DNA of 64,000 nucleotides from a virus (lineage: Duplodnaviria > Heunggongvirae > Uroviricota > Caudoviricetes), in the IMG/VR virus record IMGVR_UViG_3300047159_000064, one strand, 5' to 3'. Below are positions 15,558 through 51,476 of the stretch, in pieces (positions within the stretch are counted from its first letter, which is position 1; every line of letters begins with the position of its first letter). Both the position numbers and the translations under genes were made by a program. The notes under the pieces are model-generated. The model searched no databases and was not told where the DNA came from. It saw nothing but the letters and a program-made list of their open reading frames with translations.

Positions 15558-15569
15558 GGTAAGCCCTCC

Positions 15570-22891: not shown

Positions 22892-23550
22892 TGGCTGATG
22901 AGAAAAGCGAGTCGGCGGCTGAAGGTTTCTACGAGCTGAACGGGGTCATGGCCAAAGACGTGGCGGGGATCCCGATGACCGTCGACGAGATAGCCAAAGC
23001 CTACGCGGAGGGGCTCAAAGACGGCTCGATGCCCTACATGTCCAGACCCCCGAAGCCGGCCGGAGAGAAGGAGCTCGCCGGGTATTTCGGGCTCTCGGCC
23101 AGGAGATGCCACGAAGGCTGGCTCGAGGCCAAGCGGGCGAACGGCTGGAAGTACGGGCCGAAGGCGGATCCGGCGGAGAAGACGAACCCCTACGTCGTCC
23201 CTTTCGACGATCTCCCGGCGGAGATAAAGGAATCCAACGAGGCTGGCTCCAAGGCAGCCTTAGAGGCTTTGTCCGATCTCGGGCTCATCCCGACCAAGGA
23301 GGGCGATCTCGCTTGGGCCATCGCCCAGAGGCTCCACGACGCCTGGTCCGAGAAAAAGCTCGAGCAAGGCTGGTCCTGCGGCCCGGTCAGGGACGATCGG
23401 AAGAAAATCCATCCCGATCTGCTGCCCTATTCGGCGCTGAGCGATGAGGATCGGTCGTATGACTACGAGGCGGCCTGCTCGGCGCTCAAGGCGCTCAGGG
23501 ATCAAGGTCTGGCGCTCGAGGCGAAGCTCATAGGCGGGCCGATAGGATAA
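22891..23550 (+). CDS. RyR-domain protein (two RyR-like repeats: HDAW...GW.YG...D..K.HP.L.PY..L)
   Basis: Motifs HEGWLEAKRANGWKYGP and HDAWSEKKLEQGWSCGPVRDDRKKIHPDLLPYSAL. Confidence 0.55.
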   Translation: MADEKSESAAEGFYELNGVMAKDVAGIPMTVDEIAKAYAEGLKDGSMPYMSRPPKPAGEKELAGYFGLSARRCHEGWLEAKRANGWKYGPKADPAEKTNPYVVPFDDLPAEIKESNEAGSKAALEALSDLGLIPTKEGDLAWAIAQRLHDAWSEKKLEQGWSCGPVRDDRKKIHPDLLPYSALSDEDRSYDYEAACSALKALRDQGLALEAKLIGGPIG

Positions 23551-28901: not shown

Positions 28902-30539
28902 TTAGTTATTCCTCTTGTAAGTCAAGTCCATGGATTTGTAGCGCGTGGTGTCTAAGAAGCCAAGCTTTTCCCAGTCCTGCTTTTTGCGATTGTAGAATTC
29001 GTGCGCTATGACGTTGTCCTCGTCGATCATGAGATAATGGTGTATCTTGGCGCCGTCGCTCCAAGATCCTTCATTGTCGCGCACCGAGTATTCAGGCGCA
29101 TCAGAGAACGTGTTGGCGAGCAATTTGCCTCCAGGCTTAAGCATGCTCTCAGCCACGGCTATTTCTTCGTTCGTAAGATAGTTTATGGAATCTTCTGCGA
29201 TGATGAGATCGAGCTTGCCGCTTAGTTTTTTAGCCGCGCTTATGCAAGTGTCGAAATCGCTTCCTTTGACGAATGGGTCTATGGAATACGTCGTTCTTTT
29301 TGGCGCTGTGTTTCCGCCTATTTCCGCAGACGTCAAATGAAAGCAGTTCGCCACCTCAGCAGCAGAGGCCAGCCTTTCGTTCTTTTTGCTGAAATACCGA
29401 GAAGGGAAATCTTCGTAGTATCTGCTCCAATCGACGCTTTTGAAATCATGGGCGGCGATATAGCCGTGGTACTTTTCCATCAGCGCGGTTTTGCCCGACG
29501 AAAAAGCGGACGATACCGTTTCTTCTTCCTCTTTGGTGCCTGGGAAAACGTATTCGGCAGTTTTTTCAGCTTTTATCTCTTCGTGTTTGTGAATGACGTA
29601 ATCGTGGCCGTTCAAGGCTGCGGCCAAAGCAGGCGCGTTCAACGTAGGTTTGCCGTCTGCTTTCACCGTCAGCGTGTTTTTGTCTACGCTCATCACCCAG
29701 ACAGGATCCCCGACGTGGCCTCTGCTCGTTGTCACGAAGCCTTCGCTCTCTTTCAGCTTTATGGCTATCGTGCCGTATTTCGCCGTTCTTCTTTCTTCGT
29801 ATTCGCTTACAACGCCTTTCGCGAAGCTGAGCTCGTTCTTTGCGGCTTGGCTCATGTCGGCAGGCGCATCAACGACGTCTGTCTTGTAGTATTCCTGATT
29901 TATGGCGCGGATCATGAATTTTATGTGATCATCGAAAGACATCGGAATAACGGAGCCATCTTGCGTGAGCGCTATCTTTTTTATTTTCGCGTCAATCGGC
30001 CTATTGGCGAAAATCACGTTGGCTTTGGAATCCTCTAACGTTTTTTCGGCGGCCGAGATCAGCTCTTCGTCTGTCGCTGCATCGAACAGCTTATAGCCTA
30101 TGAGGCAGCATCTTTTGTTCTTCTTTTTTATGACGTCTATCGCTCTAGGCGCGATGGTGAATTCTATGTTGAACTTCGCGCCTTCTTTGTACAAGTGAGA
30201 AGGAAATTTTGAATCGTAAGGATGAGTAGGAGCCAAATTAGCCACGGCTGCGGCCATAACGAAAGCATCATAATTCTCTGCGTTATTGCTGAACCATTTA
30301 AAGTAATCGTAAACATCAGATACGCTTACTGTACGTATGATGTCATTGCAAGCGCTCGGCAATTCTGTTCGCTCCCATTTGACGATGGTCACGTTCAGCC
30401 CGGCGGCGGCGAGGCGCCTTGCAGTTTCGAAAGCCAATCCGCCTTTGAATACGTTAGTAAGATATTTAACTGAATCAAGCTTCGCCGGGATAGGCCCGCA
30501 GCTCACTACGACGTTTTTAGCTAATTTGTTGATATACAT
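28902..30539 (-). CDS. two-domain enzyme: N-terminal CoaB/DFP-like nucleotide-binding domain fused to a C-terminal methyltransferase-like domain; possibly leaderless (ATG 7 nt after TATAATATA)
   Basis: VVVSCGPIPAKLDSVKYLTNVFKGGLAFETARRLAAAGLNVTIV matches the DFP/CoaB pattern; C-terminal LDLIIAED...GGKLLANTF. Confidence 0.4.
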   Translation of the reverse strand: MYINKLAKNVVVSCGPIPAKLDSVKYLTNVFKGGLAFETARRLAAAGLNVTIVKWERTELPSACNDIIRTVSVSDVYDYFKWFSNNAENYDAFVMAAAVANLAPTHPYDSKFPSHLYKEGAKFNIEFTIAPRAIDVIKKKNKRCCLIGYKLFDAATDEELISAAEKTLEDSKANVIFANRPIDAKIKKIALTQDGSVIPMSFDDHIKFMIRAINQEYYKTDVVDAPADMSQAAKNELSFAKGVVSEYEERRTAKYGTIAIKLKESEGFVTTSRGHVGDPVWVMSVDKNTLTVKADGKPTLNAPALAAALNGHDYVIHKHEEIKAEKTAEYVFPGTKEEEETVSSAFSSGKTALMEKYHGYIAAHDFKSVDWSRYYEDFPSRYFSKKNERLASAAEVANCFHLTSAEIGGNTAPKRTTYSIDPFVKGSDFDTCISAAKKLSGKLDLIIAEDSINYLTNEEIAVAESMLKPGGKLLANTFSDAPEYSVRDNEGSWSDGAKIHHYLMIDEDNVIAHEFYNRKKQDWEKLGFLDTTRYKSMDLTYKRNN

Positions 30540-31220: not shown

Positions 31221-32774
31221 TTACTTTTTCGACTTGTCGTCGACCGGCTTGACTTCAGTGGTCGTCGCGCCTTTAGGCGAATCGGCGGCCAGGCTTCCGC
31301 CTAAGAAACCTGAGATAACTGATTTGACGTCGATGCCCAACGCGTTATTGAGCCCTTCGAGAATCTGCGTGCCGTTGTTGGTCATCTCTCCGACGAGCTT
31401 CGAAGAATTGCCTTCTCCGTACATCGTGATGTTGCCTACCTTGGCCATGGCCTCTGCCATAGGCTTGCTGTAGGCCTCGACGACCTGCGGGATGATGCCG
31501 GAATCCAAGACGAGTTTCAAGGTAGCGGCTTCGCCGTATTGCTTCATGGCGTCCGCCTTCTTTTGGATGGCTTCGGCTTCGGCTTTGCCTTTGGCTTCGA
31601 TTCCAGTTGCTTCTGCCAACGCTGCCTGTTTGGCGGCTTCGGCCTTTGCGATTTGGGCGTTTGCTTCTGCTTTGGCCTGGATTTCCAAGGCGGCTGCGGT
31701 CTGCGCTTTAGCTTCTTTGTCGGCGATGGCTTGGATCTTTTGCATTTCTGCTTTTTGTTCAAGCTCGTACTTTTCGGCTTCGGCCGCTTTCTGGCGCTCG
31801 AATAACTCGGCTTGCGCTTTAGTTTCAGCGGCGTACCGGTCGGCGTCTGCCTTCTTTTTGATTTCGGCGGTAAGTTGGTTCTCGCGAACGGCGGCTTGCT
31901 GCTCAGACAACGCTACTTCGCGCTCTGTCTTGGCGATTTCCGCGTTGGTCGTCGCGACGGCGATTTCCTTGTTGCGGTTTTGCTTTTCGAGATCGTAGGC
32001 GGCGTCGGCTTCGGCTTTGGCCGTATCAGATTTGACTTTGAGCTCTGCGGTCTTCAAAGCGAGGTTGGTGTTCTGCTCGACGATTGTGGTCTGAGAGGTG
32101 ACATTCGCCTCATTGGCCTCTTTGTCCGCCTGAGCTTGGGCGATGGCGACATCGCGGTTGGCGTTTGCCTTCGCGATGGCGGCGTCTTTAGAAATCTGAG
32201 AGATGTTGTCGATGCCTAAGTTTTCGATAACGTGGTTGTCGTCGGTGAAGTTCTGGATGTTGAAATTGACGACTTCCATTCCGATTTTTTCCATGTCCGG
32301 AACGACGTTGGCGATGACTTTATCGGCGATTCCTTTTCGGTCTTGGACCATGTCGCGAATCGCGGATGAGCCGACGATTTCACGAATGTTGCCTTCGAGA
32401 ACCTGAATGACCTGATTGTTGATCTCTTCTTGGGATTTGCCTAACAACGATTCTGCTGCGCGCTCCAGCAATTCCGGCTTCGACGAAATCTTGATGTTCG
32501 CCACGGCGTCGACGTTGATGTTGATGAACTCTCGCGTCGGTACGCTGCTTCGCGTTTTGATGTCGACGCTGATCAACGACAGCGACAGCACGTTTTTCTT
32601 CTGGAAGAACGGCAGACGCATGCCTGCCTTGCCGATTAGGATTTTGCGCTTACCTAACCCTGTGATGATGATTGCTTCGTCTGTGCTGGCTTTAGTGTAG
32701 CCGCATGCGAAGTAGATTGCCGCGAGGACCAAGAGGGCGCCGACGACAATGCCTACGATTAGCCATGGATTCAT
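31221..32774 (-). CDS. SPFH/band-7 (flotillin-like) protein: N-terminal TM, SPFH domain, long Ala/Glu/Lys coiled coil
   Basis: Domain architecture visible in the translation. Confidence 0.55.
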   Translation of the reverse strand: MNPWLIVGIVVGALLVLAAIYFACGYTKASTDEAIIITGLGKRKILIGKAGMRLPFFQKKNVLSLSLISVDIKTRSSVPTREFININVDAVANIKISSKPELLERAAESLLGKSQEEINNQVIQVLEGNIREIVGSSAIRDMVQDRKGIADKVIANVVPDMEKIGMEVVNFNIQNFTDDNHVIENLGIDNISQISKDAAIAKANANRDVAIAQAQADKEANEANVTSQTTIVEQNTNLALKTAELKVKSDTAKAEADAAYDLEKQNRNKEIAVATTNAEIAKTEREVALSEQQAAVRENQLTAEIKKKADADRYAAETKAQAELFERQKAAEAEKYELEQKAEMQKIQAIADKEAKAQTAAALEIQAKAEANAQIAKAEAAKQAALAEATGIEAKGKAEAEAIQKKADAMKQYGEAATLKLVLDSGIIPQVVEAYSKPMAEAMAKVGNITMYGEGNSSKLVGEMTNNGTQILEGLNNALGIDVKSVISGFLGGSLAADSPKGATTTEVKPVDDKSKK

Positions 32775-32912: not shown

Positions 32913-33398
32913 TTAGCTTATCTTTCTTGCTTTTTGGTTGTCGCTGACGAGCCAGATGCCGAGCGTTTCGTCGAAAACCTTAGGCCTGTTCGGAACGTAA
33001 CGGCCGAATTTGACGATGATGTTGTCGAACGCGGACAGCTCTTTGATCTGATCGGCGACTTCTTGCTCGTAATAGCCTGTGTAGATGACGACGTCGTCAT
33101 GACAGCCGTAATCCGTTCTCAGCTTCTTGATGAAGCCGTACAGCTCGTCGTATTGCTTAAACGGCTCTAATCCGCCAAACACGATCGCTTCGGTTATGTC
33201 GTTGGCGATGAATCGCTTTATGAGCGCATCGTCAGGGCAGTCTATGACTTTTGATTTTGCCAGCGCGTTATTCTGGCATACCGTTTCAGGGAAGCCGCCG
33301 TCATGGCAGCATTTCCAATCGCATATGCAGGTGCCGATGAACATCGAAGGCTTTTTGTAATTGACGAAATCTTCGTCAAGCAGTTGTTTTATCTTCAT
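32913..33398 (-). CDS. nrdG: anaerobic ribonucleotide reductase activating protein (NrdG-like)
   Basis: DFVN..P..F..C.C...CC cluster motif and VFGGLEP, like T4 NrdG; located next to nrdD. Confidence 0.5.
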   Translation of the reverse strand: MKIKQLLDEDFVNYKKPSMFIGTCICDWKCCHDGGFPETVCQNNALAKSKVIDCPDDALIKRFIANDITEAIVFGGLEPFKQYDELYGFIKKLRTDYGCHDDVVIYTGYYEQEVADQIKELSAFDNIIVKFGRYVPNRPKVFDETLGIWLVSDNQKARKIS

Positions 33399-33401
33399 TG
33401 A

Positions 33402-33851
33402 CTAATCCAATGAGCCCACGTCTTCCCAAGTGTCTAATTTGTATCCGTTGCGCACGCAATCTTTGCAGATTCTGCCGACGAACGGCTCGAATAAAGCTTC
33501 GTCTGCCGGAACCCATTTTCCGCAGTTGTTGCATTTGCATTCGATGTCGGCGTTCTCATTATGCTTGCTTTTGATTCTGAGATAGTCTTCGGCGAAAGCC
33601 TTGCGCCCAACTTTGTCGTTTTTATACTCGAACAGCATGACGCCGCTTTTGAACCAGGCGTCGAAGGTCTTGCCGCCAGTGGAGTTCGTCGCGCTGTAGC
33701 CGATGGTAAGCCCGTTGTCTGTCGTGAACGTGAAATCGTCAGTCGTGTCAGAAGCGAAATAGCGCTTAGGCTGGCATTTGATTCCAACGGCCTCTAAATC
33801 ATCCATGAATTCTTGCTGGCCTTCAGTAAGCTTTAGATTTTCTGGGTTCAT
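33402..33851 (-). CDS. hypothetical protein with C-terminal zinc ribbon (CKCNNCG...CKDC)
   Basis: ORF track. Confidence 0.5.
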   Translation of the reverse strand: MNPENLKLTEGQQEFMDDLEAVGIKCQPKRYFASDTTDDFTFTTDNGLTIGYSATNSTGGKTFDAWFKSGVMLFEYKNDKVGRKAFAEDYLRIKSKHNENADIECKCNNCGKWVPADEALFEPFVGRICKDCVRNGYKLDTWEDVGSLD

Positions 33852-33903
33852 TCGCGTTTCTTCTTTCTTTTTAATTATACGGCTTAAGCTATGCCTTTTT
33901 TAA

Positions 33904-35883
33904 TTAATCTATAAGCGATTTCTGGTCTTCTGCGTATTTGTACCATTGACGCGCCGTGAATTCCTTGAAGCGCTCTTTGCTGTAGCTCTGAGACGGCGTC
34001 AGGAAGCCTACGATACGCTGCCAGGTGTCGGCGACTGGCTCTCCGCAGATCGGGCAGACGTCGGTGCCTACGAAGCCATGGTTGTGCTTGCAGGAGTTTA
34101 TCTTCGTGTTGAACGCGAAGTAGATGACGCCGGCGTGCATTATCTTGTTCAGCATGCTCCATGCCACGTCGGTATTCGGGAAGTTGTTCTCGAGGTTGAT
34201 GTGGGCTATGGCGCCACCTCCGCATTTAGGATCGAGGATGGCGGACAGCTTTATCTTCTCGTCTATCGTGCATTTGGCCGTAAGCGGTATCCATTGGTTG
34301 GAATATATCGAGTCTTCGTGTCTATCGAACAAGAGATTGTCTTTAGCGCAAAGCACTACTGCTGCTTTCTCGGCCGGGACAGATTCGATGTTGAACGAAT
34401 AGTCGGCACCGAACGCGTCTTTAGTCTCGTTGATGACCCGCATGATGTCTTCGGCGAATGCGATGCCGTCGTCGGTGTAGCTGACGCAGCCGAATTCGTC
34501 GGTTTTTGTGTTGCCGAAGAATTTGATGACTTCGTATAAGCCGAGGATGCCGACGGTCGAATACTGCTTTTTGATGTCGATTCCGCCGTCGACGTAGTTG
34601 GGCAAAAGCCCCTTCTCTACGTTGCGCATGATGATGTGCCGCTGGATATCTAGCGTCTTGCAGCACAGATTGACTCTGGCCTTAAGCCTCTTCAGATAGT
34701 CTTTCTTGTCGCTCGATTCTAGCGCTATGCGCATCAGGTTTATCGTGTTGACTTTTATCGAGCCGATCGAAAGCGCGGTCCCGCCGATGCTGTTGACGAA
34801 AGCGTCGAGCTTCGACGTGTCGCTCAATAGGCGGCAGCAGTTGGAAAGCGTGTTGACGTTCTCGCTTCCGAAGAAGTTCGAATCGTTCCACTTGGTGTTG
34901 TGATCCGAGCACCATCTCGCGAAATCGTTGTCTTTGAACAGCTTGTAGTCGTGCGTGTGCTCCATCTCTTTCCATTCTTCGTCCGTCACGTCGTCTCTCT
35001 TGAGGAGCGAATACGTGAGCACCGGATAGGTGAACATGTTCTGCGCGCGGATGTCCGATACGACGTCCATGAACACCTTTTCGTGATTGATGAAGCCATC
35101 TATGTCGTCGACGACCATCGATCCGTCAGGGTAGACAACGCCGCCGAACAGCGATTCTACGTAATAGCGGTCGAATATGGAGACGTTGGTGAACGAGCTC
35201 TGCGTTATCCTCAAGAACGGCTGATTGAGCCTGTAGATGAGCTTTTGGAAGCATTGCTTGAGATAGTAGTCCGGATCTTTGATGTAGTATCCTTCGGCGA
35301 CGTCTTTCTTCCAGAAGTAATATGTCCAGATCAGGACGTTGGGGATTCCGACGGCTCCGGCGCTTCTGTTGCTGAAGAAGCTGATGTACTCGATAAGCAT
35401 GTCCAAGAAGCTGGACAGATGCTTCGGGCCTTGGTGGTTGTAGTTGTCTAAGAAGAAAAGGCCGTCTGTGGCGAGCCTGGTAAGGTCATAGGCGTAGCAA
35501 TACGGAAGATACGTCGAAGTGTGCGCGTCATGGAGATAGAACGCCCCAGACCATTCGTCTTCGAGCCATTCTTTGGCGGTCTTCAGGCCGTACTTTTTCT
35601 TCATCTCGTAGAAGATTTTGTTGAACGCGAAAATCTTGTCTTCAGACTTGTCTTTCTCTGACTTGAACGACACGATGTCTTTGGCTCTGGCGTTTGCCGA
35701 GCCGTCTATCGTGGCGTCAGCTGCCGTCTTGACGTTCTTATCGATGAAATTGTCGATGAACTCAGAATAGTCCAGCTGGCTTTCGGCCACGCCGTTAAGA
35801 ATCTCGAAGTCATGCCCGTATTTGTCTTTCAGGTTGTTGACCGTTCTCTCGAAGTCAGTGTCTAATTTTAAAGAAATTTCCAT
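33904..35883 (-). CDS. nrdD: anaerobic ribonucleoside-triphosphate reductase (class III)
   Basis: C-terminal glycyl-radical motif QRIVGFLTP and zinc ribbon CKHNHGF...CPICG; 659 aa. Confidence 0.7.
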   Translation of the reverse strand: MEISLKLDTDFERTVNNLKDKYGHDFEILNGVAESQLDYSEFIDNFIDKNVKTAADATIDGSANARAKDIVSFKSEKDKSEDKIFAFNKIFYEMKKKYGLKTAKEWLEDEWSGAFYLHDAHTSTYLPYCYAYDLTRLATDGLFFLDNYNHQGPKHLSSFLDMLIEYISFFSNRSAGAVGIPNVLIWTYYFWKKDVAEGYYIKDPDYYLKQCFQKLIYRLNQPFLRITQSSFTNVSIFDRYYVESLFGGVVYPDGSMVVDDIDGFINHEKVFMDVVSDIRAQNMFTYPVLTYSLLKRDDVTDEEWKEMEHTHDYKLFKDNDFARWCSDHNTKWNDSNFFGSENVNTLSNCCRLLSDTSKLDAFVNSIGGTALSIGSIKVNTINLMRIALESSDKKDYLKRLKARVNLCCKTLDIQRHIIMRNVEKGLLPNYVDGGIDIKKQYSTVGILGLYEVIKFFGNTKTDEFGCVSYTDDGIAFAEDIMRVINETKDAFGADYSFNIESVPAEKAAVVLCAKDNLLFDRHEDSIYSNQWIPLTAKCTIDEKIKLSAILDPKCGGGAIAHINLENNFPNTDVAWSMLNKIMHAGVIYFAFNTKINSCKHNHGFVGTDVCPICGEPVADTWQRIVGFLTPSQSYSKERFKEFTARQWYKYAEDQKSLID

Positions 35884-35909
35884 AATGCTGTTTTTGCCTT
35901 TGCCAATCC

Positions 35910-36125
35910 TTACATCGCCTGCTGCGAATTAACCCATTTCACGGCGGTCATGAAATCCATCATCTCGCCGTTCAGGCTGAGCTGCGGCGCGCTGGTTATG
36001 CCTAATTTTATCATCTCGTCTATGTTGTCTACCTCGGTGTAGCCGATGTTCTTCTGCTTCAGCTTCATTTCCAATACCCTGCATTTCGGGCAGTGGCTAG
36101 AATAGAATACGATTTTGTTTTCCAT
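35910..36125 (-). CDS. nrdH: glutaredoxin-like protein (NrdH-like, CPKC)
   Basis: 71 aa, CPKC redox motif, directly upstream of nrdD. Confidence 0.55.
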   Translation of the reverse strand: MENKIVFYSSHCPKCRVLEMKLKQKNIGYTEVDNIDEMIKLGITSAPQLSLNGEMMDFMTAVKWVNSQQAM

Positions 36126-36172
36126 TACTGCTTTTCCTTTTTTAATGGCTTATTAAAACCCTCATAAGATAG

Positions 36173-36198
36173 CAAAACCCCACGTCGAATGGGGTTCT
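36173..36198 (-). terminator. terminator-like hairpin (CCCCA-loop-TGGGG plus T-run) between late promoter motif 1 and nrdH
   Basis: ccccacgtcgaatgggg followed by ttttg on the minus strand. Confidence 0.4.
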
Positions 36199-36213
36199 GA
36201 AGCTCATTTGAAT

Positions 36214-36243
36214 CTGTATATAGTTTAGCAGATTATTATACGG
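36214..36243 (-). promoter_or_regulatory. late promoter motif copy 1 (minus strand AATCTGCTAAACTATATAC)
   Basis: tatatagtttagcagattattata. Confidence 0.45.
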
Positions 36244-36821
36244 TTTTATCCATCAGTATTTTTTAAGCTGAAGCTTAAAAAAGCAAGATAATATCTATAT
36301 AAATAGCTATATAAAATAATAATTATAATAATGCTTATTATTAATATTATTTATATAATAATACAGTATTCTTTATCTATAAAGCGCGTTCTTTTTTGTA
36401 TTCGGCGTAGATCGCGTCGCGCTGCTTGCTCGTCAGCGAGAATCTGCCGTTGTCTATGTAGCACTCGAATATCTTGCTCAGATACACGTGCTTGGCGTCC
36501 ATGGCGTCTGCCAGCGGCTGAAGCTTCTTAAGATGCTCTAGTCGTGAACCCACCTGCCGAGCAGAACTGCGGGCATAGGAAAGTGCAAAGCTGCATCGGG
36601 CAGAATGTTCTGTAGCCGCTTTTCTGCGCCGTCAGGCAATACGCTATGTATTCGTCCGGAGTCATTCGCTTTCAGATGAACACGTCGAACAAATCGAACA
36701 AACGCTCTTTATCGAAAGCGTCAGTCGCATAATCGTTCAATGCGATGAAATCGAAGTCGTGCGGCTCGAAGTCAGCGTAGCTTGAAAAAAACAAGCTAGA
36801 TCCCGTCAGCATGTATTTCAT

Positions 36822-39800
36822 TTATTTCTCTCCCAGCCTGGCTTTAAGCTCTTCGACTTCTTTTTTAAGCTTTTGTATTTCGTAGATCTCTAAGGCGTGA
36901 AGGTCGGTGTAGTTAAGCGCATAGACGCTCTTGCCGTCAATGAAGTTTTTCGACACTATGCCGAAATCAGTCGGGTTAAGTCCTGCCGCGCTCATCGCGC
37001 TTTCGACGTCTTGGGCAACGAAGCCGAATCTAGTCTTGGCTCTGTTGTTTTTGAATCTGAATGACGCAGGCTTAAGCCCGTCGAATAAAGCGTCATATCC
37101 AGATAAGGCGTATTCTATGCCTGTTTTCAGCCTTCTATCAGATGTGTTAGATACCGAATCGGCGGTAAGCTCATTGACCCTTATGGCAGCTTTTTTGCTG
37201 TCTGTGCCGAAGCGTATGCCGTTTATCAGCGCGCCGTCAAGCGAAATTGTTTTTTCTGTCGCTGATATAAGCTGATAGTCTTTTGTTATGCTTATGGTGT
37301 CGAAGCTAATGCTGGCTACTCCAATTACTGTGCCGTTCGACGGTGGAGTTATGTCGCAGTATAGGCTTGTCGGCGTATAAACGTAATTGTTTAATAGCGC
37401 GCTATACGGCATATAGAAGACTTTTGTTTGAGCTGATGTCGCGGTGCTGTATGATGTGCCGGCCGATGTTGTTCCTGCTGCATATTTGTATGCGTAGATT
37501 ATCGTCATTTTTACAGCTATGTTTCCTGAAGTGTTTATTGTTCCGAAACCGAAGTTATCAGCGCCGAGGGCATTGCCGTTGTAGCTGTAGTCATTTAATG
37601 AATTTTGGCGCGTCGTGCTGCTGTCTTTTACATTCTTTATGCTGCCTATTGTTACTCTGTTGTTTACGCACTCATAACCAGCGATTGTCGGCGTCGTTAC
37701 GTAGATTAGTGATATTACATTATTAGTGGTAGAGACATAAGCAGAAATAGGTAAATCGCAGATTGTTGTGCTTGTATCGCTATTGCCAGCGATATTGGCG
37801 CCGGTTATGTTGGCGCGATTTATGTCAAGGCCTGTCATGAATTCTCCGCCGTCTAATGCCAAAGTTGATCCGCTGGCGGTCAGTATACCGTCCAACATTG
37901 TCAGTTTTGGCAAGGCATTTGTGACTGCGTAATCTAAGACATTGTGCATTTTCAGTGTAACAGAATCACCAAAAGTAACCTCAGTTGTAGGATCTCCTAC
38001 TGCAGGCTTTTTAGGCGCGACGATAAATCCGTTTTTTCCGCCTATTACGAGCGTGCCTGGAAGATATAAATCATTATCTTTTGATATGGCACCTTCGCCG
38101 CCTTGTATTGAAAAAAGGTAGTCTCTTGTATTTATGCTGTCTCAACTGCTTACTTTAACGAATACTTCATTTTCGCAATCCCATCTGTAGTAGCATCCAT
38201 CTGTGCTGTTTAAATAGCAAGCAGTGACTTTTTCTGTTATGTCTGTTCCAGTGCTATTTTTAAAAGTTGTGCCGTTTTGCTCCGGTTTGCTGCCGAATAA
38301 ATCGGTGCCAAATCATTCTCAGTCTTGCGTTGTCCCGCTTGATTCTACATTCTTAGCGGCTTGAGTTATGGTATGTGATACCAAATACGGAGCTATGTTT
38401 ATATTTCCTGTCTCAGTAAGCTGCGTAGAATAAACTCTTTGCGTCACTAAAAACCATTGATTGTCGTTTTCTAACGGTACGTTTTCTGACGGCAGGCCAA
38501 ATGATTCTTTTTTGTCCTTTACGTCGCCGCTGCTGTCTGTTTCTTGTATTAGTCCTATTCTGACCGAGCCGTTTTTCACGTCTAAATTGTTGATGTTGGC
38601 GTTGTTCGCGTAAAGGTTTCCTAAATTGTTCACGCCGAAATTATCGCCAGCCGCGAATACTAGGTTAGAAACTTTATTGTCGTTTATGCTGAGGTACTTT
38701 GTTCCGGTGCCGGTCGACATCAAAACGGCGCCGTTTGTGCTGCTGTTTAGCGTTATGGCGCTGTTGTCAGCCTTAGGAAGCGTATAGCCGTTTTGAAGTA
38801 TATTGGCGCCTATTTCGAAGCCGCCTATTCATTTGTTATTTTTTTTATCGAAGCTGGCGCCTATTTGTCCGTGTTCTGCTATTATGTTTCCGGTGATGTT
38901 GGCGTTGTTCGCGTAAAGGTTTCCTAAATTGTTCACGCCGAAATTATTGCCTGCGGCGAATACCAGGTTAGAAACGTTGTTGTCGTTTATGCTGAGGTAC
39001 TTTGTTCCGGTGCCTGTCGACATCAAAACGGCGCCGTTTGTGCTGCTGTTTAGCGTTATGGCGCTGTTGTCAGCCTTAGGAAGCGTATAGCCGTTTTGAA
39101 GCACGCTATCGCCTATTTCGAAGCCGCCAGCACCTGAGGAGTCAGCGCCTATTTGTCCGGATTTTGCCACTATTTTGCCAAATACACTGAGCCCTTCGCT
39201 GTTGGCAACCAGTATGTCTTTCTGAATCTGATCCCCATTTTCATCCGCTATTTTTGCATAGACGGTTCATTCGCTGGCGTCAAGGTTCCATCCGAACCCT
39301 GTCACGTCATTTTTTTTGTTCAGTTTTGCGTCTACCGCTGCGTTTGTGCTTTCTATGCTTGTGGCGTTGGCATCAGCCTTTTTATCCACCGTAGTTACTT
39401 CACTGCGTATGCTTTTAGCCGTTTGCTCTATTAGGCTGGTTATATTTTTGTTTTGATTGTCCTGCGAGGTGATTACCTGCTTGAATCTGTTGCCGTAGTC
39501 TCTGTCCATCTGCCCGAGGTCTTTGTCGAGCGTGCTGACTTTTGCCGTAAGGCTTGACAGCGAAAAATAAGGCGCCGTCGTATTAGGCGTGTCTTTGTCT
39601 AGGCTGCTGCTCATTTTCGTGTCGAACGGTATGGTCGCCGATTTGCTGGTCGCCGACGTTTCGACGTTTATCGTTCCTCTTGGGTCAGCTTTTTCTAATT
39701 CTGCGCCTAGGTAGAGCTTTCCTATCACGACGGGCAGCTCCATTAGGTTGTTTTCGAAAGCTACCCAGACCACGTCGCCGACTTTGTAGCCGTTGTAGCT

Positions 39801-39929
39801 TCCAGGCGTATTGGATATGGTCGCTACGCCGTTTATCTCATCGTTTCCCGCGGATTCGAAGAACGGCATCCTGACGGAGCAGGTGTTGCCGCTTAAGTCT
39901 ATAGAAGTTATCTGGCCTTTTGTAATCAT
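36822..39929 (-). CDS. tail fibre protein (about 1035 aa) with tandem repeats of about 165 aa and a C-terminal S74 intramolecular chaperone domain; about 6 in-frame TGA codons (about 39267, 38829, 38319, 38313, 38142)
   Basis: ORFs 39267-39929, 38829-39170, 38319-38723 and 36822-37949 share one frame and are separated only by TGA; C-terminus SDRRLKTGIEY...GFVAQDVE...LKKEVEELKARL. Confidence 0.65.
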
Positions 39930-40053: not shown

Positions 40054-40731
40054 CTATGACAGCTCGCTTATCGCGGATTCTAGCTCGCTTTTGAGCTCGG
40101 CTATGAACTGCTCTTTGGTGAATATGCGCCCTGTCTCTTCTATTATGCCGGTTATTCCGCGGCACAGCGCGTATTTTCCCGTCAGCCTTTTGAAGATGTC
40201 CTTCTCAGGCGAGTATTCCAGCGTTATTACCAGGTCTTCTGACAAAACGCCGTTTTCTAAGGCATACTCGTTGCCCATGAACTTTTTGTTCTCGTACAGC
40301 ACGTCGTTGCCTATTTTTTTAAGCTTCGATCCGTCTGCGCCTAATTTCACGAGCGTTGAGCAGATCGTGTCCGCCGCCATCGTTCTGGCCTTTTGCAGAT
40401 CGTCCGGCGTTCATGAAGCATCGATTTTTATGTGGGCCGTGACTGGCACGGAGTTTTTATTGACCAGTATGTTATATCCTGTTTTGAAGCTGGCTTCGTG
40501 TTTTATGTAGGGAAGGTTGCAGCTGCGCAAGCCGTCTGGCTCCGTCTTTATCAGCGTGTCCGATTTGAGCGGCCGATTCCATCAGAACGGCTCTTGGACA
40601 TCGCCTATGGCTATGACGTTTTCGCCCAGGAACTTGCCTGTGTTCCTTCATTCGAATTGGTTCTTCAGGACGTCGGGTATGACGCCTTTAGAAGGCGCGA
40701 CTTTCTCGACCGTTACTTTTATGTTCTTCAT
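40054..40731 (-). CDS. hypothetical structural protein (about 225 aa) with 3 in-frame TGA codons, including a TGA-TGG pair
   Basis: Single frame from ATG 40731 to TAG 40054: ...KNQFE*RNTGKF...QEPF*WNRPL...IDAS*TPDDLQKARTMAADTICSTLVKLGADGSK... (ORF 40054-40380 is its C-terminus). Confidence 0.6.
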
Positions 40732-41180: not shown

Positions 41181-42416
41181 TTAGTAAAAGAATACAGCGC
41201 AACCATTCGCGCCAGATTGGCTTGATGTTACTGTTGTTGTGTTTTTGCTGTAAAAATCGCCGCCGCCGCCGCCATACAATGGGTTTGTAGCGGCTTGTAC
41301 GATATCTTGCGATATTTCTGCATATCCTCCATTGCCGAAAGAGTTTCCGCCAGGCACACAGAATGTAAAATTCGCGCCATCAGCGTCTTTTAGCTTAGTC
41401 GTATCAGCTGGTATGGCATTGAGTTGTTTATTGATTTTTACAGCATCATTTTTTCCGCAGAATAACGGCCGTATCGTAGTTTGCTGGCTGATGTTTATGT
41501 TAGTATCGCCCTCATTATAACTGGCGTCAGATCCTGTTCCTCCGCATATGTAAGCAGTTTTAATTAGATGACTGCTGTCATATATCGTTATTTCGCCGCC
41601 TGCGCCGCCGGCAGCAGAAAGGAGAGTACTCTTATTACTATCGTCATAATTTCCGCCTTTGCCACCGCTTCCGCCATGGACAACCGCTATGACTTTTTCT
41701 CAATCGCAGCTGTCGCCTAAAAATATAGCAGAGTCTTCACCATTAATACCATTACTGCCATGCTGAGTATGCGTGGTGTAGGTTGCATTGTTTACGCCGG
41801 CTCCGCCTTTTCCTAGTTTTATTGTGTACTCGTAGTGTTCTACGTCCAATACAGCGATGAATATTCCTCCGCCTCCGCCTCCGGCGCCGGGAAATAATTT
41901 ATTTCTGCTGTCTCCACAACCGTCTTTGTTGCATCCGTCAGTGTCGGCCTCTGCGCTTCCTCCGCCGCTTCCTCCGCCGCCTACAAGAACAAGGCTTATA
42001 TATTTAATATCATCATCAGTTGTTCCGAAGTTTGTTCTGCCAATAGTTACTTGTTTTGTATTTTTGTCTTTAGTTATAGTAAAAATAGTATTATTTGCTA
42101 TATATTCTATTGCTTTCGTTATCGTAGATCCCTTTAGCTTTATGCGGCTGCCGTCGGTATTATCTGAGCACACGACAGGAAAAGTGCCTTTTTCTACGCC
42201 ATAAATAGGCGCAGAGTTTCCATTTTCTGCCTTTTGAAAACATGGTATGGCCTTTTGTCTCGCTATGCCGTTTCCATTGGCTGGGCTTTGCAGCTTTGCA
42301 TCTGGCATGTCTGCGTCATACCCTATGGCATGCAAATCTAAAGATTCCTCGCCGCTGTGCAGCGGTTCAAGATCTTTAGCGAAAGCGTTTGTGTCATTGT
42401 AATTGTAGTTGGCCAT
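41181..42416 (-). CDS. Gly-rich fibre-like protein (about 410 aa) with 1 in-frame TGA at 41700; extends 170 codons beyond the track ORF to a TAA just before the next RBS
   Basis: After ...GDSCD-TGA the same frame stays open: EKVIAVVHGGSGGKGGNYDDSN...LYGGGGGDFYSKNTTTVTSSQSGANGCAVFFY then TAA. Confidence 0.6.
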
Positions 42417-42418
42417 GT

Positions 42419-44974
42419 TTACGCTCCTTTAAGCGCGGATACCTCCTGCTTGAGCGATTTTACTTCTTGGAGCAGAAGATAGACGAGTTTGCTTTCTTCT
42501 ATAGAAAGATAGCCGTTTTCGTCCTCATGCACGATTTCTGGGCATATCTTTATCAGGTCTTGGGCGATGCAGCCTATGTGCTTCGTATGCGTTTCGTCTG
42601 AGATGTATTCGAATTCTTTCACAGGCAGATCTAAGATGGATTTGTCGCAGGCATAGTCTCGCACATTGGTCTTTTTTCTGATATCGGATGTCGCCGTGAA
42701 TGACTGGGCGGTGACAGTTCCGCTAGTATTGAGCGTTATGACAGTCGTGCCTGTAGCGTTGCTTACGCTTAAACCGCTTAACGCGGTTATCATGCCTTTT
42801 ACCGACAAGCTGTCCTTAAGCTCTACTGCTTTGCTTATCGCTAATCCTGTCGTGCTAAGGCTTAATAACGCTGTCGTACCGTCAGCCGCGTTTATCGACA
42901 GGCTATTCTCGTTTATCGTCATGCCTGTGTTGCTGGCTGAGACGAATGTTTTGCTGTCTTTGCTGAGGATTAAGCTTTGCCCCGTTATGCTTTCTCCGGC
43001 CGTCAGCGTCTTTGCTTTTATGGCGCCTGTGGCCGTCAGGCCGGTGTCTACTGTGACTTTATTGAATGTTGCTGCGCCTGTTTCATCAATGCTGCAGCCT
43101 TTGCTCATGGTAAACTTCGAGACGCCGGTTAATTCTGCATTGGATAATTTTACGGCTTTGTTTATCGCGAAAACGTTGTTTGTTTTGTCATAGACTATGG
43201 ATGCGGCGGCATCGTCGCTGCCGAAATAATAGCCGTTCGGCGCGATGACTTTATCGTCTGTTGTTATCTTTAATTTGCTGTATGTTCCATTTCTTGTGAC
43301 GCTGAAATCGCTGTTGTGCGCGCCGAATTCGCCATCGGCATCTAAGTTTCCTTTTATGCTGGCGGCTTCTGCCTCTATGGTCAGCGCTTTTATTTTCGTT
43401 GTGCCGTCTTTCGATAAAGTTGCTCCGGCTTCTGTCGCGCTGAAAACAGCGACGGCCGGATATGCCGCGCCTGATTTATTCGTCAAAGTCGCGCTGCCGT
43501 TCGCCGTCAGCTTGCCTTTGGCGGCTATGTCGCCGTCGGCGGAGATGTCTTTTGTAGTTTTTATTCCGGCTTCATCGGCTTCGAAGCTGGTGACTCCGTC
43601 TTTGGCGACGCTGAATCCTGCAGCTGAGGTTATGCTTCCGGTCGCATCTACGGATTTCGCAGATATGCCGGCTTCCGCTTTCAGCGCTTTGGCGAAGTCT
43701 ATGCCATCGGCTGAGAATTCGGCTATCGGATCTTTAGACGCCGTTTGAATTTTGAAATCAAGCGTCGCTGTGACGCCTGTTTCGTCGGCGCCGATATTAG
43801 GCGCTGCAAAGGTGCCATCGGCCGTCAGCGCGCCTGCGATATGCGTTTTGCCCGCGATGTCTACGTCGCCTGTTTTGCTGGCTGAGAATACAGCCTTTCC
43901 TTTTTCGCCGTATACGGTTATGGCGCCGTATTCTCCGGCCGTCGCGCTGCCTAGCGTAAGCGTGTTGTCGCTCGCCCCAGAGGCTTTTATCGCGCCTTTG
44001 ACGTTGAGCGCGGTATTGACGTCGAAGCCGTCTGCTTTAAGCGCGAGCAGATTAGATCTGTCGTTCTCGCTTGTTCCGTTTCCTACCAGGAACAGCGCCG
44101 CGGCATCTATTAGGTTATAGCGTCCGAAGACCGCTTGGTTTTTGGCTTCGGCTTTCAGATACTCGCCGAAAGCGAATGAGTTTTCGGCGTCAGTTTGAGA
44201 ATAGTAGCCGCCTACGAACGAGTTTTTGCCGTTCTTTGTAGTTGTAGTCGTTTCGCCGCTTGATGCGGAATTTTCTCCGTTGGCAGTAGTTCCTTTGCCG
44301 ATGCCGAATGAATAATCGCCTATCGCTCTGCTGCTGTAGCTGACGTCCGCGATTGTCGCCCCGAGCATTCTCAGCGCGTAAGCGCCTTTGTCGGTGGCAA
44401 GCGCCATGTCGATCGGCATAGCGTTCCAATTCAGCGCGCCAGCGGCTGTAGAGAACGGCTGCAGCGTATAGCTTGCCGTTATTTTGCCTACGTCGTTTTG
44501 GCTGACTAAGCAAAGGCCGGCGAATACGTAGCTTGAGCCTGAAGCCACGTCCAGGTATTGAACCGCGTCGTCGATCCATGAGGCTAGCATCTCTGTTTTT
44601 CTGTTTGGATCTTCCGGCACCGTTGCTGCGGTCGTCATGTCGACGGTGCGCAGCCTTATGGCCAGCAGCCTAGGCGTGCCGTCTGCATCGAAGAAATCGG
44701 CGCTATCAGCGTTATAAAGCTCGAAATAATAGCCGCCGATTACCGCTTTTAGCGTTTTGGTAGCAGCGTCGAACGAAATAACGTAGCTCTCTCTGCTTTT
44801 GCCGAGCTTCGGTCTGGCGTTGACAAAATTATACTCGGTGCTGCTTCTGGCTTCCGGGTCGAATGTTTTGTTGTTTGTTTTGTTGCCTCTGTAAGCGCAA
44901 GGGAATACCTTGACGTCCGCGCTGCTTAGCAGTTTTATCGTGGCGTTTGAGTAAGTGTGATCTGTCAATGTCAT
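42419..44974 (-). CDS. tail fibre protein with C-terminal S74 intramolecular chaperone domain (851 aa, no TGA)
   Basis: C-terminus RKKTNVRDY...IGCIAQDLIKICPEIV...LLLQEVKSLKQEVSALKGA; Ala/Gly/Thr-rich body. Confidence 0.6.
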   Translation of the reverse strand: MTLTDHTYSNATIKLLSSADVKVFPCAYRGNKTNNKTFDPEARSSTEYNFVNARPKLGKSRESYVISFDAATKTLKAVIGGYYFELYNADSADFFDADGTPRLLAIRLRTVDMTTAATVPEDPNRKTEMLASWIDDAVQYLDVASGSSYVFAGLCLVSQNDVGKITASYTLQPFSTAAGALNWNAMPIDMALATDKGAYALRMLGATIADVSYSSRAIGDYSFGIGKGTTANGENSASSGETTTTTKNGKNSFVGGYYSQTDAENSFAFGEYLKAEAKNQAVFGRYNLIDAAALFLVGNGTSENDRSNLLALKADGFDVNTALNVKGAIKASGASDNTLTLGSATAGEYGAITVYGEKGKAVFSASKTGDVDIAGKTHIAGALTADGTFAAPNIGADETGVTATLDFKIQTASKDPIAEFSADGIDFAKALKAEAGISAKSVDATGSITSAAGFSVAKDGVTSFEADEAGIKTTKDISADGDIAAKGKLTANGSATLTNKSGAAYPAVAVFSATEAGATLSKDGTTKIKALTIEAEAASIKGNLDADGEFGAHNSDFSVTRNGTYSKLKITTDDKVIAPNGYYFGSDDAAASIVYDKTNNVFAINKAVKLSNAELTGVSKFTMSKGCSIDETGAATFNKVTVDTGLTATGAIKAKTLTAGESITGQSLILSKDSKTFVSASNTGMTINENSLSINAADGTTALLSLSTTGLAISKAVELKDSLSVKGMITALSGLSVSNATGTTVITLNTSGTVTAQSFTATSDIRKKTNVRDYACDKSILDLPVKEFEYISDETHTKHIGCIAQDLIKICPEIVHEDENGYLSIEESKLVYLLLQEVKSLKQEVSALKGA

Positions 44975-44994: not shown

Positions 44995-45516
44995 TTAATC
45001 TACGTTCTCGACCGTCATTTTCCAGTCTACTATCGTAGTCATGTTTCCGCCTGATTCTGGTATCGTGAATTGCTCTGATTCCGTCAGCGAGACATAGGCG
45101 AGCAGGTCGTTCTGCAGGCTTGATATCATCGGCGGATACAGGCATAGTTTTTTTATCGTGGCGCCCTGCTTCATGTACAAGAACGGTATTCTGAAGTGGA
45201 ATGTCACGCTTGTCTCTTTGTCTTTTACTTCGACGGTAGGCGCTGAATCGTATATGATGGCGGACGACGCGGGATAGTTGTAGAAATTATCGGTGTCGTC
45301 TCTGAACAGGACTATTTTGTTCGGCCGTTCGTTTTTGGCCGACGCTCAGTTGCCCTGCAGGCAGGAAGAAAAGAAATTGAATAGCTTTTTTGAGCCGGAG
45401 TTGCAGTAGCTGTTTGCCGCTATGAGCCTGCCGTTGTCAAGGAAGCTGACCGTCACTTTGCCTTGGTACAGCATGCCGTTATGATTGCTAAGCTCTTTTG
45501 TTTTTTCGTTGTCCAT
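44995..45516 (-). CDS. hypothetical structural protein (about 173 aa) with 1 in-frame TGA (about 45346)
   Basis: MDNEKTKELSNHNGMLYQGKVTVSFLDNGRLIAANSYCNSGSKKLFNFFSSCLQGN*ASAKNERPNKIVLFRDD... continuous with ORF 44995-45207. Confidence 0.5.
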
Positions 45517-51165: not shown

Positions 51166-51476
51166 TTTAGTAGGTAGTGACGGAGTCGTCTCCTGCTATT
51201 CTCGTCATGCTGAGCGTCGTTCTGTAGCCGCTCTCGTTTATGACGTCTTGCTGCTGCGTCACGAGGTAAAGTCCAGACGATATGTGCTTTCTTCCTCCTG
51301 GGAATATGACGTTGAGCCTGACGTAGTTCATCAGTATCGCCGGTCTCAGCAGAGCCTTGGACCGTTATCGTCGCCTTTATGGGGAATTTGGTGACTTTTG
51401 TCCACCAGGTGATGTCAGACGGCCTGGTGATGAAGTTGTCGTTCTTCGAGGTTATCGTAGGCGCCCAAACGTCCTC

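What the first reader, a model, noticed from the sequence alone, without database searches (positions are those of the whole stretch)
36822..39929. A 1035-aa tail fibre built from tandem repeats of about 165 aa, with TGA codons at the repeat boundaries
Two near-identical repeat units (IGGFEIG..LQNGYTLPKADNSAITLNSSTNGAVLMSTGTGTKYLSINDN.VSNLVFAAG.NFGVNNLGNLYANNANI) occur, each followed by a TGA in the same frame; further TGAs follow (QD*E*FGTDLF, KVSS*DSINTRDY). The C-terminus is an S74-type autoproteolytic chaperone domain. Duplication of a module that includes the recoded codon suggests recent receptor-binding-domain expansion.
Basis: seen in the sequence. Interest (0 to 1): 0.65.

Follow-up and report, generated by a model that had tools for sequence, protein, structure and literature searches.

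The report
Phage spike-fibre gene reading TGA as tryptophan
This is one intact 1035-codon tail spike/fibre gene of an uncultured T4-like phage that reads the stop codon TGA as tryptophan, a known phage habit, so it is a clear but ordinary example and not a broken or new kind of gene.

Summary
Minus strand 36822-39929 is one frame of 1035 codons. It has five in-frame stops, all TGA, and ends in TAA. TGA encodes Trp here. At TGA-221 at least 90% of 69 aligned homologues have W. TGAs in five other window genes align to W in related phages. The nearest relatives carry many in-frame TGAs that align to TGG in the window. Strain-level contigs keep four of the five TGAs; the fifth recurs in the one other contig that carries the second repeat copy. 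One strain has TGA where the window has TGG. dN/dS stays at 0.15-0.19 downstream of the TGAs.

The C-terminal S74 chaperone domain is confirmed, with the Ser930/Lys935 motif. The repeat claim is only partly right. There are two copies of about 100 aa (303 nt), not 165 aa, and they make up 19% of the protein. The second copy is present in two strains and absent from three. Only TGA-367 lies in the repeat, in the diverged linker of copy 2, so no recoded codon was duplicated.

The N-terminus is an OB fold like those of central spikes. Two early genes still appear to stop at TGA, which fits the published standard-to-code-4 switch. No suppressor tRNA was found, so the decoding machinery is inferred. 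This is a new member of a known kind.

The parts
36822..39929 (-). Whole gene: 1035 sense codons (five of them TGA) plus the TAA stop at 36822-36824. It encodes a spike/fibre protein.
   Evidence: Codon-usage log-odds are positive in this frame for every segment between TGAs and negative in the other frames. dN/dS against strain L049 is 0.07 for aa 1-220 and 0.18 for aa 222-1035.
39267..39269 (-). TGA codon 221, read as Trp.
   Evidence: The query carried X at this position. 78 BLAST alignments place W there, and the column is W in at least 90% of 69 aligned homologues. P0001 has TGG at this position. The TGA is conserved in strains L049 and L053.
38829..38831 (-). TGA codon 367, in the diverged linker at the start of repeat unit 2 (NNK-W-IGGFEIG).
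   Evidence: The same linker with the same TGA is present in the independent JGI contig L050. The linker and its TGA are absent from the one-unit strains. No homologue alignment is informative at this position.
38313..38321 (-). TGA-GAA-TGA, codons 537-539 (W-E-W).
   Evidence: Both TGAs are conserved in L049, L051, L053 and L054, while the codon between them varies between E and K.
38142..38144 (-). TGA codon 596.
   Evidence: Conserved in L049, L051, L053 and L054.
39705..39929 (-). N-terminal OB-fold domain (aa 1-75), resembling the OB domain of central spikes of contractile tails.
   Evidence: The AlphaFold model shows five strands with pLDDT of 63-88. Seven of the top 15 Foldseek hits are central-spike or baseplate chains of PVC, AFP, AlgoCIS, the Streptomyces and Anabaena contractile injection systems and R2 pyocin; the best E-value is 4e-4. 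The Pfam Phage_base_V hit is weak, 14.7 bits against a cut-off of 23.8.
39180..39704 (-). Rest of the conserved N-terminal region (aa 76-250), with a predicted helix at aa 124-145 and the FGW..D..W motif.
   Evidence: The 101 homologues share 40-60% identity over about the first 260 aa and then diverge.
38892..39179 (-). Repeat unit 1 (aa 251-346, 96 aa).
   Evidence: Tandem Repeats Finder reports period 303, 2.0 copies, 85% matches. The repeat finder family D1 is 235 nt at 94% identity. Protein alignment.
38589..38891 (-). Repeat unit 2 (aa 347-447, 101 aa). It corresponds to a 300-nt in-frame insertion relative to strain L049, which the alignment places at 38585-38884.
   Evidence: The unit is absent from L049, L053 and L054 and present in L050.
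37143..38588 (-). Distal variable region (aa 448-929), presumed to bind the receptor. GC3 is 0.43 here against 0.58-0.69 in neighbouring genes.
   Evidence: Strain L050 carries a different cassette over about aa 495-600, with TGA where the window has TGG at W492 and W583.
36825..37142 (-). Peptidase S74 intramolecular chaperone domain (aa 930-1035). The predicted self-cleavage site is before Ser930, in the motif S930-D-R-R-L-K935.
   Evidence: Pfam PF13884 matches with E = 2.4e-9. S, D and K are invariant in 14 homologous C-termini. A profile of these C-termini hits PDB 3GUD (chain begins SDERHK), 6F45, 7DC3, 6EU4 and 8HQZ.

Best explanation
The region is a single late gene of an uncultured T4-like myovirus. 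It encodes a 1035-residue protein, presumably trimeric, with these parts in order:
- an N-terminal OB-fold domain that probably docks on the baseplate hub,
- a conserved stalk,
- a shaft module of about 100 aa, present in two copies in this strain,
- a variable distal region,
- a C-terminal S74 chaperone that should cut itself off before Ser930 after folding.

The five in-frame TGAs are translated as tryptophan. This phage and its nearest relatives use TGA as a Trp codon in middle and late genes, while at least two early genes still appear to end at TGA.

The most likely way it works (inferred, not shown) is this. Early genes are read with the host's standard code. Later a phage-supplied opal suppressor tRNA (anticodon UCA, charged with Trp), possibly helped by other factors, makes UGA a sense codon. 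A gene with five UGAs can then be completed only late in infection.

Shown here: it is one ORF, TGA equals Trp, selection acts across the TGAs, the S74 motif is present, and repeat copy number varies between strains. Inferred: the suppressor tRNA, the timing, trimerisation, self-cleavage, and the position on the tail axis.
For: TGA means Trp:
- All five internal stops are TGA, and the frame has no TAA or TAG over 1035 codons (chance about 1e-16).
- With X placed at the TGAs, position 221 aligns to W in 78 BLAST alignments and is W in at least 90% of 69 homologues. P0001 has TGG there.
- In other minus-strand genes, window TGAs align to W in related loci. These are 40411, 40582 and 40648 in L008; 51477 in seven loci; 63466 and 63508 in L002; and 20733 and 20988 in L001. 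One aligns to F.
- The Gly_rich_2 domain spans the TGA in gene 41181-42416.
- The nearest relatives L002, L003, L008 and L009 carry many in-frame TGAs, for example 23 TGA against 22 TGG in L002. These align to window TGG in 26 of 34 cases.
- Their orthologues of this gene carry 5-25 TGAs.

Translation continues past the TGAs:
- The coding score is positive in every segment between TGAs.
- Against strain L049 (96.6% nt identity) there are 62 synonymous and 22 non-synonymous codon differences. dN/dS is 0.15 for aa 222-536 and 0.185 for aa 540-1035, against pN/pS of 1.4-1.9 in the off-frames.
- The TGAs are conserved in independent assemblies, and L050 has TGA where the window has TGG at W492 and W583.

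TGA as a stop:
- Thirty late genes called as code-4 ORFs end in TAA or TAG, and the sequence after every in-frame TGA stays coding.
- The early gene 11479-12336 ends at TGA between an AAGGAGGA motif and the ATG of the next gene, and its in-frame extension has a negative coding score.

Other points:
- S74 evidence.
- The pattern matches published TGA-recoded phages (bioRxiv 10.1101/2021.08.26.457843; PMC11210395).
Against: - No tRNA of any kind was found in the window, in about 10 kb beyond each end, or in 28 loci from relatives. There were no Rfam hits. No RF1 or TrpRS domain turned up among the window proteins scanned. The decoding machinery is therefore unseen.
- Positions 367, 537, 539 and 596 lie in variable sequence, so Trp there rests on extension from other sites and on conservation between strains, not on homologue alignment.
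- The SNF2 helicase gene also carries TGA as W (20733, 20988), so recoding is not strictly confined to late structural genes.
- The window has three apparent frame breaks (about 51355, about 36530, about 19800). This shows its consensus is imperfect, although the TGAs themselves are confirmed in other assemblies.
Confidence: 0.9

Rival explanations
1. The host itself uses genetic code 4, as mycoplasmas and spiroplasmas do. The phage then simply shares its host's code, and there is no switch and no phage suppressor.
For: No suppressor tRNA was found. Most cultured code-4 phages infect Mycoplasma or Spiroplasma (PMC11210395). The nearest relatives have 29-34% GC.
Against: At least two early genes look terminated by TGA. 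One has the TGA sitting between a Shine-Dalgarno motif and the next start codon, and its in-frame extension looks non-coding. The window has 49-58% GC and GC3 up to 0.86 in early genes, unlike known code-4 bacteria (my own knowledge). TGA makes up only about 15% of Trp codons in late genes.
Confidence: 0.07
2. The gene is a decaying pseudogene, or a set of four independently translated fibre fragments separated by real stops.
For: Gene callers using code 11 split it into fragments of 220, 113-183 and 338-402 aa in every assembly. The window holds other frame breaks.
Against: All five stops are TGA and none is TAA or TAG. dN/dS is 0.15-0.19 downstream of the stops. The internal candidate starts lack ribosome-binding motifs and would leave 32-64 conserved codons untranslated. 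Homologues are single polypeptides with the same N-terminus and the same S74 end. Fragments without the N-terminal domain would have nothing to attach them to the tail (inference).
Confidence: 0.02
3. TGA encodes another residue (Gly as in code 25, or selenocysteine), or is skipped.
For: Some gut phages use code 25. Four of the five sites have no informative homologue alignment.
Against: W predominates wherever a window TGA can be aligned, with one F and never G or C at real-frame sites. The reciprocal test gives 26 W of 34. TGG and TGA interchange between strains. No SECIS-like element or other Rfam hit was found.
Confidence: 0.01

Closest known systems
TGA-recoded (code 4) gut phages such as the Agate and Jade clades (Borges et al., bioRxiv 10.1101/2021.08.26.457843)
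   Same: In-frame TGA aligns to Trp. TGA is abandoned as a terminator. Recoding is concentrated in structural genes, with standard-code early genes. Close relatives differ in how far they are recoded. A tail protein is among the most recoded genes. A suppressor tRNA is often not detectable (35% and 15% of code-4 genomes).
   Different: Clade membership was not tested, because the window holds no terminase gene. This genome has 49-58% GC, while its recoded relatives have about 31%. Only about 15% of late-gene Trp codons are TGA. A helicase gene is recoded as well. No code-change module (tRNA, TrpRS, RF1) was seen in the 64 kb.
Peptidase S74 intramolecular chaperone domains of endosialidases, tail spikes and fibres (Pfam PF13884; PDB 3GUD, 6F45, 8HQZ)
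   Same: The domain sits at the extreme C-terminus. The S-D-x-x-x-K motif is at the domain start. The GF(I/V)AQD core and a terminal coiled coil are present. The profile matches solved chaperone domains.
   Different: Self-cleavage and trimer folding were not tested. The window's other S74 fibre (42419-44974) has no TGA.
Central spike proteins of contractile tails (P2 gpV, R2 pyocin spike, Afp8/Pvc8, T4 gp5 OB domain; Pfam PF04717)
   Same: The N-terminus is a predicted OB fold whose best structural matches are spikes of contractile injection systems. Short homologues of 148-265 aa lie between the hub gene and the gp25-like gene in relatives, and a long homologue occupies that slot in L003/L025.
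   Different: The Pfam score is below threshold. In the window the gene lies at the far end of the tail module, about 10.7 kb from the gp6-like gene. It carries about 960 further residues ending in an S74 domain, so it would be an axial fibre and not a short needle.

Membership tests
Stop-codon-recoded phage, TGA to Trp (code 4) | In-frame TGA in conserved genes aligns with Trp in homologues. | tested here: met
   Reciprocal test: 26 W of 34.
Stop-codon-recoded phage, TGA to Trp (code 4) | The reading frame stays under coding selection across the recoded codons. | tested here: met
   Coding score. dN/dS of 0.15-0.19 downstream of the TGAs, against 1.4-1.9 in off-frames.
Stop-codon-recoded phage, TGA to Trp (code 4) | TGA is not used as a terminator in the recoded module. 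| tested here: met
   Thirty late genes, called as code-4 ORFs, end in TAA (22) or TAG (8), and the sequence after every in-frame TGA stays coding. The TGA at 62923 can be read either way.
Stop-codon-recoded phage, TGA to Trp (code 4) | Early genes are written in the standard code (mixed-code genome). | tested here: met
   Genes 11479-12336 and 15090-15569 end at TGA followed by non-coding sequence in frame. In the first, the TGA lies between an SD motif and the next ATG. This rests on coding statistics and gene arrangement, not on homologues.
Stop-codon-recoded phage, TGA to Trp (code 4) | A phage-encoded suppressor tRNA (Sup-TCA) or other code-change genes. | tested here: inconclusive
   None in the window, in about 10 kb on each side, or in the loci from relatives. 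Most of the genome was not available.
Stop-codon-recoded phage, TGA to Trp (code 4) | The host uses the standard code. | not testable with these tools
   The host is unknown. Shine-Dalgarno motifs and high GC give only indirect hints.
Peptidase S74 intramolecular chaperone (PF13884) | Pfam match above the gathering score at the C-terminus. | tested here: met
   37.8 bits against a cut-off of 22, aa 930-984.
Peptidase S74 intramolecular chaperone (PF13884) | Conserved Ser and Lys (S-D-x-x-x-K) at the cleavage site. | tested here: met
   S930 and K935 are invariant in 14 sequences. They align to the SDERHK start of PDB chain 3GUD_A.
Peptidase S74 intramolecular chaperone (PF13884) | Autoproteolytic release after trimer folding. 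| not testable with these tools
   This needs biochemistry.
Central spike of contractile tails (gpV/gp5/VgrG OB domain, PF04717) | Pfam Phage_base_V match above threshold. | tested here: not met
   14.7 bits against a cut-off of 23.8. Homologue P0005 carries a precomputed PF04717 hit.
Central spike of contractile tails (gpV/gp5/VgrG OB domain, PF04717) | N-terminal OB fold structurally like known spikes. | tested here: inconclusive
   The model has mean pLDDT 69, and 63-88 over aa 1-70. The best Foldseek hits are spikes of contractile injection systems, but the best E-value is 4e-4, TM-scores are low, and generic OB folds score similarly.
Central spike of contractile tails (gpV/gp5/VgrG OB domain, PF04717) | The gene lies next to the baseplate hub gene. 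| tested here: not met
   In the window, and in L002/L017 and L008/L018, it lies at the end of the tail module. In L003/L025 and L010-13 the homologue does lie in the spike slot.
Fibre built from tandem repeats of about 165 aa | Several head-to-tail units of about 165 aa covering most of the protein. | tested here: not met
   Two units of 96 and 101 aa, 19% of the protein.

The most novel reading that the evidence does not exclude
This phage may be an evolutionary intermediate: a GC-rich offshoot of an AT-rich, heavily TGA-recoded T4-like clade. On this reading UGA is both a stop (early genes) and Trp (middle and late genes). TGG and TGA still flip between strains. The spike/fibre gene keeps the highest TGA load because its distal part is exchanged with AT-rich, more heavily recoded relatives. 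Its five UGAs would make the host-range protein the gene most dependent on the code switch.
Probability: 0.3. Interest if true: 0.45.

Novelty: new member of a known kind. Interest (0 to 1): 0.3.

Why it matters
For annotation, standard-code gene calling splits this gene into four or more pieces in every public assembly seen. It does the same to at least six other genes in the window. Code 4 is therefore needed to recover the phage's host-recognition proteins.

For biology, the window adds a well-documented case to the known picture of phage stop-codon recoding. A T4-like phage of about 50% GC uses TGA both as a stop and as Trp. There is strain-level evidence of TGG/TGA interchange, and a shaft module is gained or lost between strains. 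It does not change the picture.

Tried and rejected
Searches that found nothing:
- blastn of the gene against GenBank phages gave no match. tblastn of the sheath protein found only a 24% match to an uncultured 484-kb phage.
- PHROGs and a PDB sequence search with the whole protein gave no hits.
- The search for related loci with the 834-aa protein and with the 220-aa N-terminus alone found nothing. The alignment-based scan worked.
- The exact-sequence look-up of the 851-aa fibre was not on record. An exact 36-mer from the window end is absent from metagenome contigs and genome contigs.
- tRNA searches of the window, both flanks and 28 loci from relatives found none, and Rfam found nothing.
- Pfam found nothing in most early-region proteins.
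- A second literature search for recoded myoviruses returned nothing relevant.

Ideas considered and rejected:
- That the duplication is an assembly artefact. The same two-unit junction occurs in an independent JGI contig, L050.
- That the TGAs are sequencing errors. They are conserved in Logan and JGI assemblies.
- That ORF 62342-62926 is a real gene whose ATG overlaps the TGA at 62923. That ORF did not pass the coding-score filter, while the read-through frame scores 0.72. Even so, the TGA at 62923 stays ambiguous, because a 96-aa ORF starts 43 nt downstream.

Not attempted:
- A pattern scan of IMG/VR for Sup-TCA tRNAs. The expected number of hits would exceed what could be filtered for relatives.
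Full report
**What is in the sequence**

The feature lies on the minus strand; the plus-strand translation is full of stops. Read on the minus strand, 36822-39929 is one frame of 1035 sense codons ending in TAA. It has five internal stops, all TGA, at codons 221, 367, 537, 539 and 596. Off-frames of the window's genes carry TAA or TAG at 3.5% of codons. A 1035-codon stretch without either therefore has a chance probability of about 1e-16.

**Are the TGAs translated, and as what?**

I searched the protein database with X at the five positions, so the search could not be biased towards any residue. It returned 101 homologues of about 600-1750 aa. They share the first 260 or so residues with the query and then diverge.
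- At codon 221, 78 BLAST alignments place W.
- In a 70-sequence alignment that column is W in at least 90% of sequences, within a conserved FGW..D..W motif.
- The best hit, P0001, uses TGG there and has no TGA in its gene.

A codon-usage log-odds model trained on 13 long intact genes gives 0.27-0.69 per codon for every segment between TGAs. The other two frames give -0.15 to -1.0, and the training genes give 0.47-0.80.

**Is this a property of the whole genome?**

I compared six-frame translations of the window, with TGA as X, against loci fetched from IMG/VR. TGAs in real minus-strand frames align as follows:

| Window TGA(s) | Gene | Aligned residue and locus |
|---|---|---|
| 40411, 40582, 40648 | 40054-40731 | W in L008 |
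| 51477 | 51167-52469 (hub-like) | W in seven loci |
| 63466, 63508 | 62590-63957 | W in L002 |
| 20733, 20988 | 19803-21131 (SNF2 helicase) | W in L001 |
| 45346 | 44995-45516 | F in L008 |

The Gly_rich_2 Pfam domain also spans the TGA in gene 41181-42416.

The nearest relatives (L002, L003, L008, L009) are 60-82% identical to the window in baseplate proteins and have about 31% GC. They are themselves full of in-frame TGAs, for example 23 TGA against 22 TGG in L002. More distant relatives use only TGG. TGAs in relatives align to window TGG-Trp in 26 of 34 cases, to window TGA in 3, and to Y or F in 3. Their orthologues of this gene are open frames of 756 to more than 2100 codons, with 5-25 TGAs and no TAA or TAG.

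Across 30 late genes of the window there are 14 TGA and 82 TGG codons. These genes were called as code-4 ORFs and so end in TAA or TAG by construction; the sequence after every in-frame TGA stays coding. This gene holds 5 of the 14 TGAs, against 4 TGG (Fisher p = 0.003).

**Strain-level evidence**

Exact-protein look-ups found contigs 96-100% identical to the window in JGI and Logan assemblies.
- TGA-221, 537, 539 and 596 are conserved in every strain that covers them, while neighbouring residues vary.
- Strain L050 has a different cassette over about aa 495-600. It has TGA where the window has TGG at W492 and W583.
- Against L049 (96.6% nt identity) there are 62 synonymous and 22 non-synonymous codon differences.
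- dN/dS against L049 is 0.07 for aa 1-220, 0.15 for aa 222-536 and 0.185 for aa 540-1035. The same differences read in the off-frames give pN/pS of 1.4-1.9.

Selection therefore acts on this frame beyond every TGA.

The alternative of independently started fragments fails. The next possible starts after the TGAs are 32-64 codons downstream and lack any ribosome-binding motif, whereas most genes here have AAGGAG-like motifs.

**A mixed code**

The low-coordinate part of the window (about 1-18 kb) holds small genes of unknown function, presumed early, with GC3 of 0.78-0.86. Two genes there look terminated by TGA.
- Gene 11479-12336 ends ...WIKED-TGA. The TGA lies between an AAGGAGGA motif and the ATG of the next gene. 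Its in-frame continuation is 181 codons with coding scores of -0.25 to -0.48.
- Gene 15090-15569 behaves similarly.

This matches the published model for phages that infect standard-code hosts: early genes in the standard code, structural and lysis genes recoded, TGA abandoned as a terminator, and a suppressor tRNA detectable in only a minority of code-4 genomes.

I found no tRNA in the window, in about 10 kb beyond either end, or in 28 loci from relatives. Rfam gave no hit, and no RF1 or TrpRS domain appeared among the proteins scanned. The decoding machinery is therefore inferred, not shown.

A code-4 host is the main rival. It is disfavoured by the TGA-terminated early genes, by the 49-58% GC, and by the low share of TGA among Trp codons.

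**The repeats**

- The period is 303 nt, or 101 aa. There are two copies: a 235-nt core at 94% identity, plus a 35-nt stretch at 80% offset by a 15-nt indel.
- Unit 1 is aa 251-346 and unit 2 is aa 347-447. Together they make up 19% of the protein.
- The figure of 165 aa is the spacing between TGAs, not a repeat length.
- TGA-367 is the 21st codon of unit 2, in the diverged linker (GNIIAEHGQIGASFDKKNNK-W-IGGFEIG). Unit 1 has Ala/Gly at that position, so no recoded codon was copied.
- Strains L049, L053 and L054 have a single unit; L049 lacks exactly 300 nt.
- The independent contig L050 has both units, with the same linker and the same TGA. The duplication is therefore real, recent and polymorphic in the population.
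- In the window, unit 1 matches the L054 allele and unit 2 matches the L049/L053 allele at the variable sites. This points to unequal recombination between alleles and not to simple slippage. That last step is inference.
- The module lies in the shaft, not in the distal region.

**Architecture and likely place on the virion**

The C-terminus is a bona fide S74 chaperone domain.
- Pfam gives 37.8 bits against a cut-off of 22.
- S930, D931 and K935 are invariant in 14 homologous C-termini.
- A profile of those C-termini hits solved chaperone domains: 3GUD, 6F45, 7DC3, 6EU4 and 8HQZ. The processed 3GUD chain starts at the aligned SDERHK.

The N-terminal 72 residues are predicted as a five-stranded OB fold. 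Its best structural matches are central spikes of contractile injection systems, but the scores are weak.

Gene position varies among relatives. Short homologues of 148-265 aa sit between the hub-like gene and the gp25-like gene. In L003/L025 a long homologue fills that slot. In the window, and in its two nearest relatives, the slot is empty and the long gene lies at the end of the tail module.

I therefore think the protein docks on the hub as an axial spike-fibre (confidence about 0.5). The Pfam spike model is not met, so I do not file it as a member of that family.

The phage itself is T4-like. Gp23, an S77 prohead protease, gp13, gp19 and T4_baseplate families occur on strain contigs that overlap and extend the window, and there are sheath and baseplate wedge hits.

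**Verdict**

The repeat geometry and the idea of a duplicated recoded codon are wrong. The phenomenon is already described for gut phages, so this is a new member of a known kind and of modest interest. The window's consensus has three apparent frame breaks, so single-base details should be checked against reads. The TGAs themselves are confirmed in independent assemblies.

Noticed in passing
window 57871-58119 and 58073-58843 (minus strand); also L002, L003, L008, L011: The T4_baseplate-family gene ends ...FRFGSEFFRPTTI*. A frame of about 80 codons with no start codon, shifted by +1, overlaps its end. That frame is 64-70% identical in four relatives, and all share a run GAGTTTTTT(A/C)GACCC. 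This is a candidate conserved programmed +1 (or -2) frameshift.
   Followed up: partly
window about 51355, in the hub-like gene 51167-52469 (minus strand): The gene continues in another frame after ...ITVQG. In L002, L003 and L008 the homologue is one continuous ORF. The window has one extra base here, either a consensus error or a real frameshift.
   Followed up: partly
window 36378-36821 (minus strand): The gene just downstream of the fibre is a single 147-aa ORF with a conserved in-frame TGA (36672-36674) in strains L049, L051, L053 and L054. The window has a cluster of +T, -A and +A changes near 36530 that breaks the frame.
   Followed up: yes
window 18731-21131 (minus strand): An SNF2-type helicase is interrupted by an intein inserted right after its DEIHK motif. 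The Intein_splicing N-terminal part is aa 246-354 of ORF 19803-21131, and the C-terminal motif is aa 13-35 of ORF 18731-19822. The two halves are in different frames. The gene carries four TGAs; two align to W and one to F in L001, and the fourth lies in the intein with no homologue alignment.
   Followed up: partly
whole window: Codon composition comes in three tiers. GC3 is 0.78-0.86 in the presumed early genes (1-18 kb), 0.58-0.69 in structural genes and 0.43 in the distal fibre segment. The nearest relatives have only about 31% GC overall.
   Followed up: partly
window 36822-39929 compared with L049: Divergence is mosaic. Synonymous divergence is 0.40 for aa 1-220 but 0.048 for aa 222-1035. 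This suggests a recent exchange of one part of the gene between strains.
   Followed up: no
window 42419-44974 (minus strand): A second fibre protein of 851 aa also ends in a Peptidase_S74 domain (aa 763-815). It has no TGA and only two TGG codons.
   Followed up: no
window 62923-62925 (minus strand): This TGA can be read either as Trp, in which case the 110 codons after it score as coding, or as a stop followed 43 nt later by a 96-aa ORF that gene callers annotate separately in strain contigs.
   Followed up: partly
window 22891-23550 (+), 28902-30539, 31221-32774 and 32913-36125 (minus strand): Auxiliary genes found here: a RyR-domain protein on the opposite strand, a DFP/CoaBC-like flavoprotein, an SPFH/flotillin-like protein, and an NrdH-like (CPKC motif), NrdD and NrdG-like anaerobic ribonucleotide reductase set.
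   Followed up: no
window 36130-36330: A strongly AT-rich stretch of about 200 nt with no ORF lies between the fibre module and the nrd genes. It may be a promoter or terminator region.
   Followed up: no
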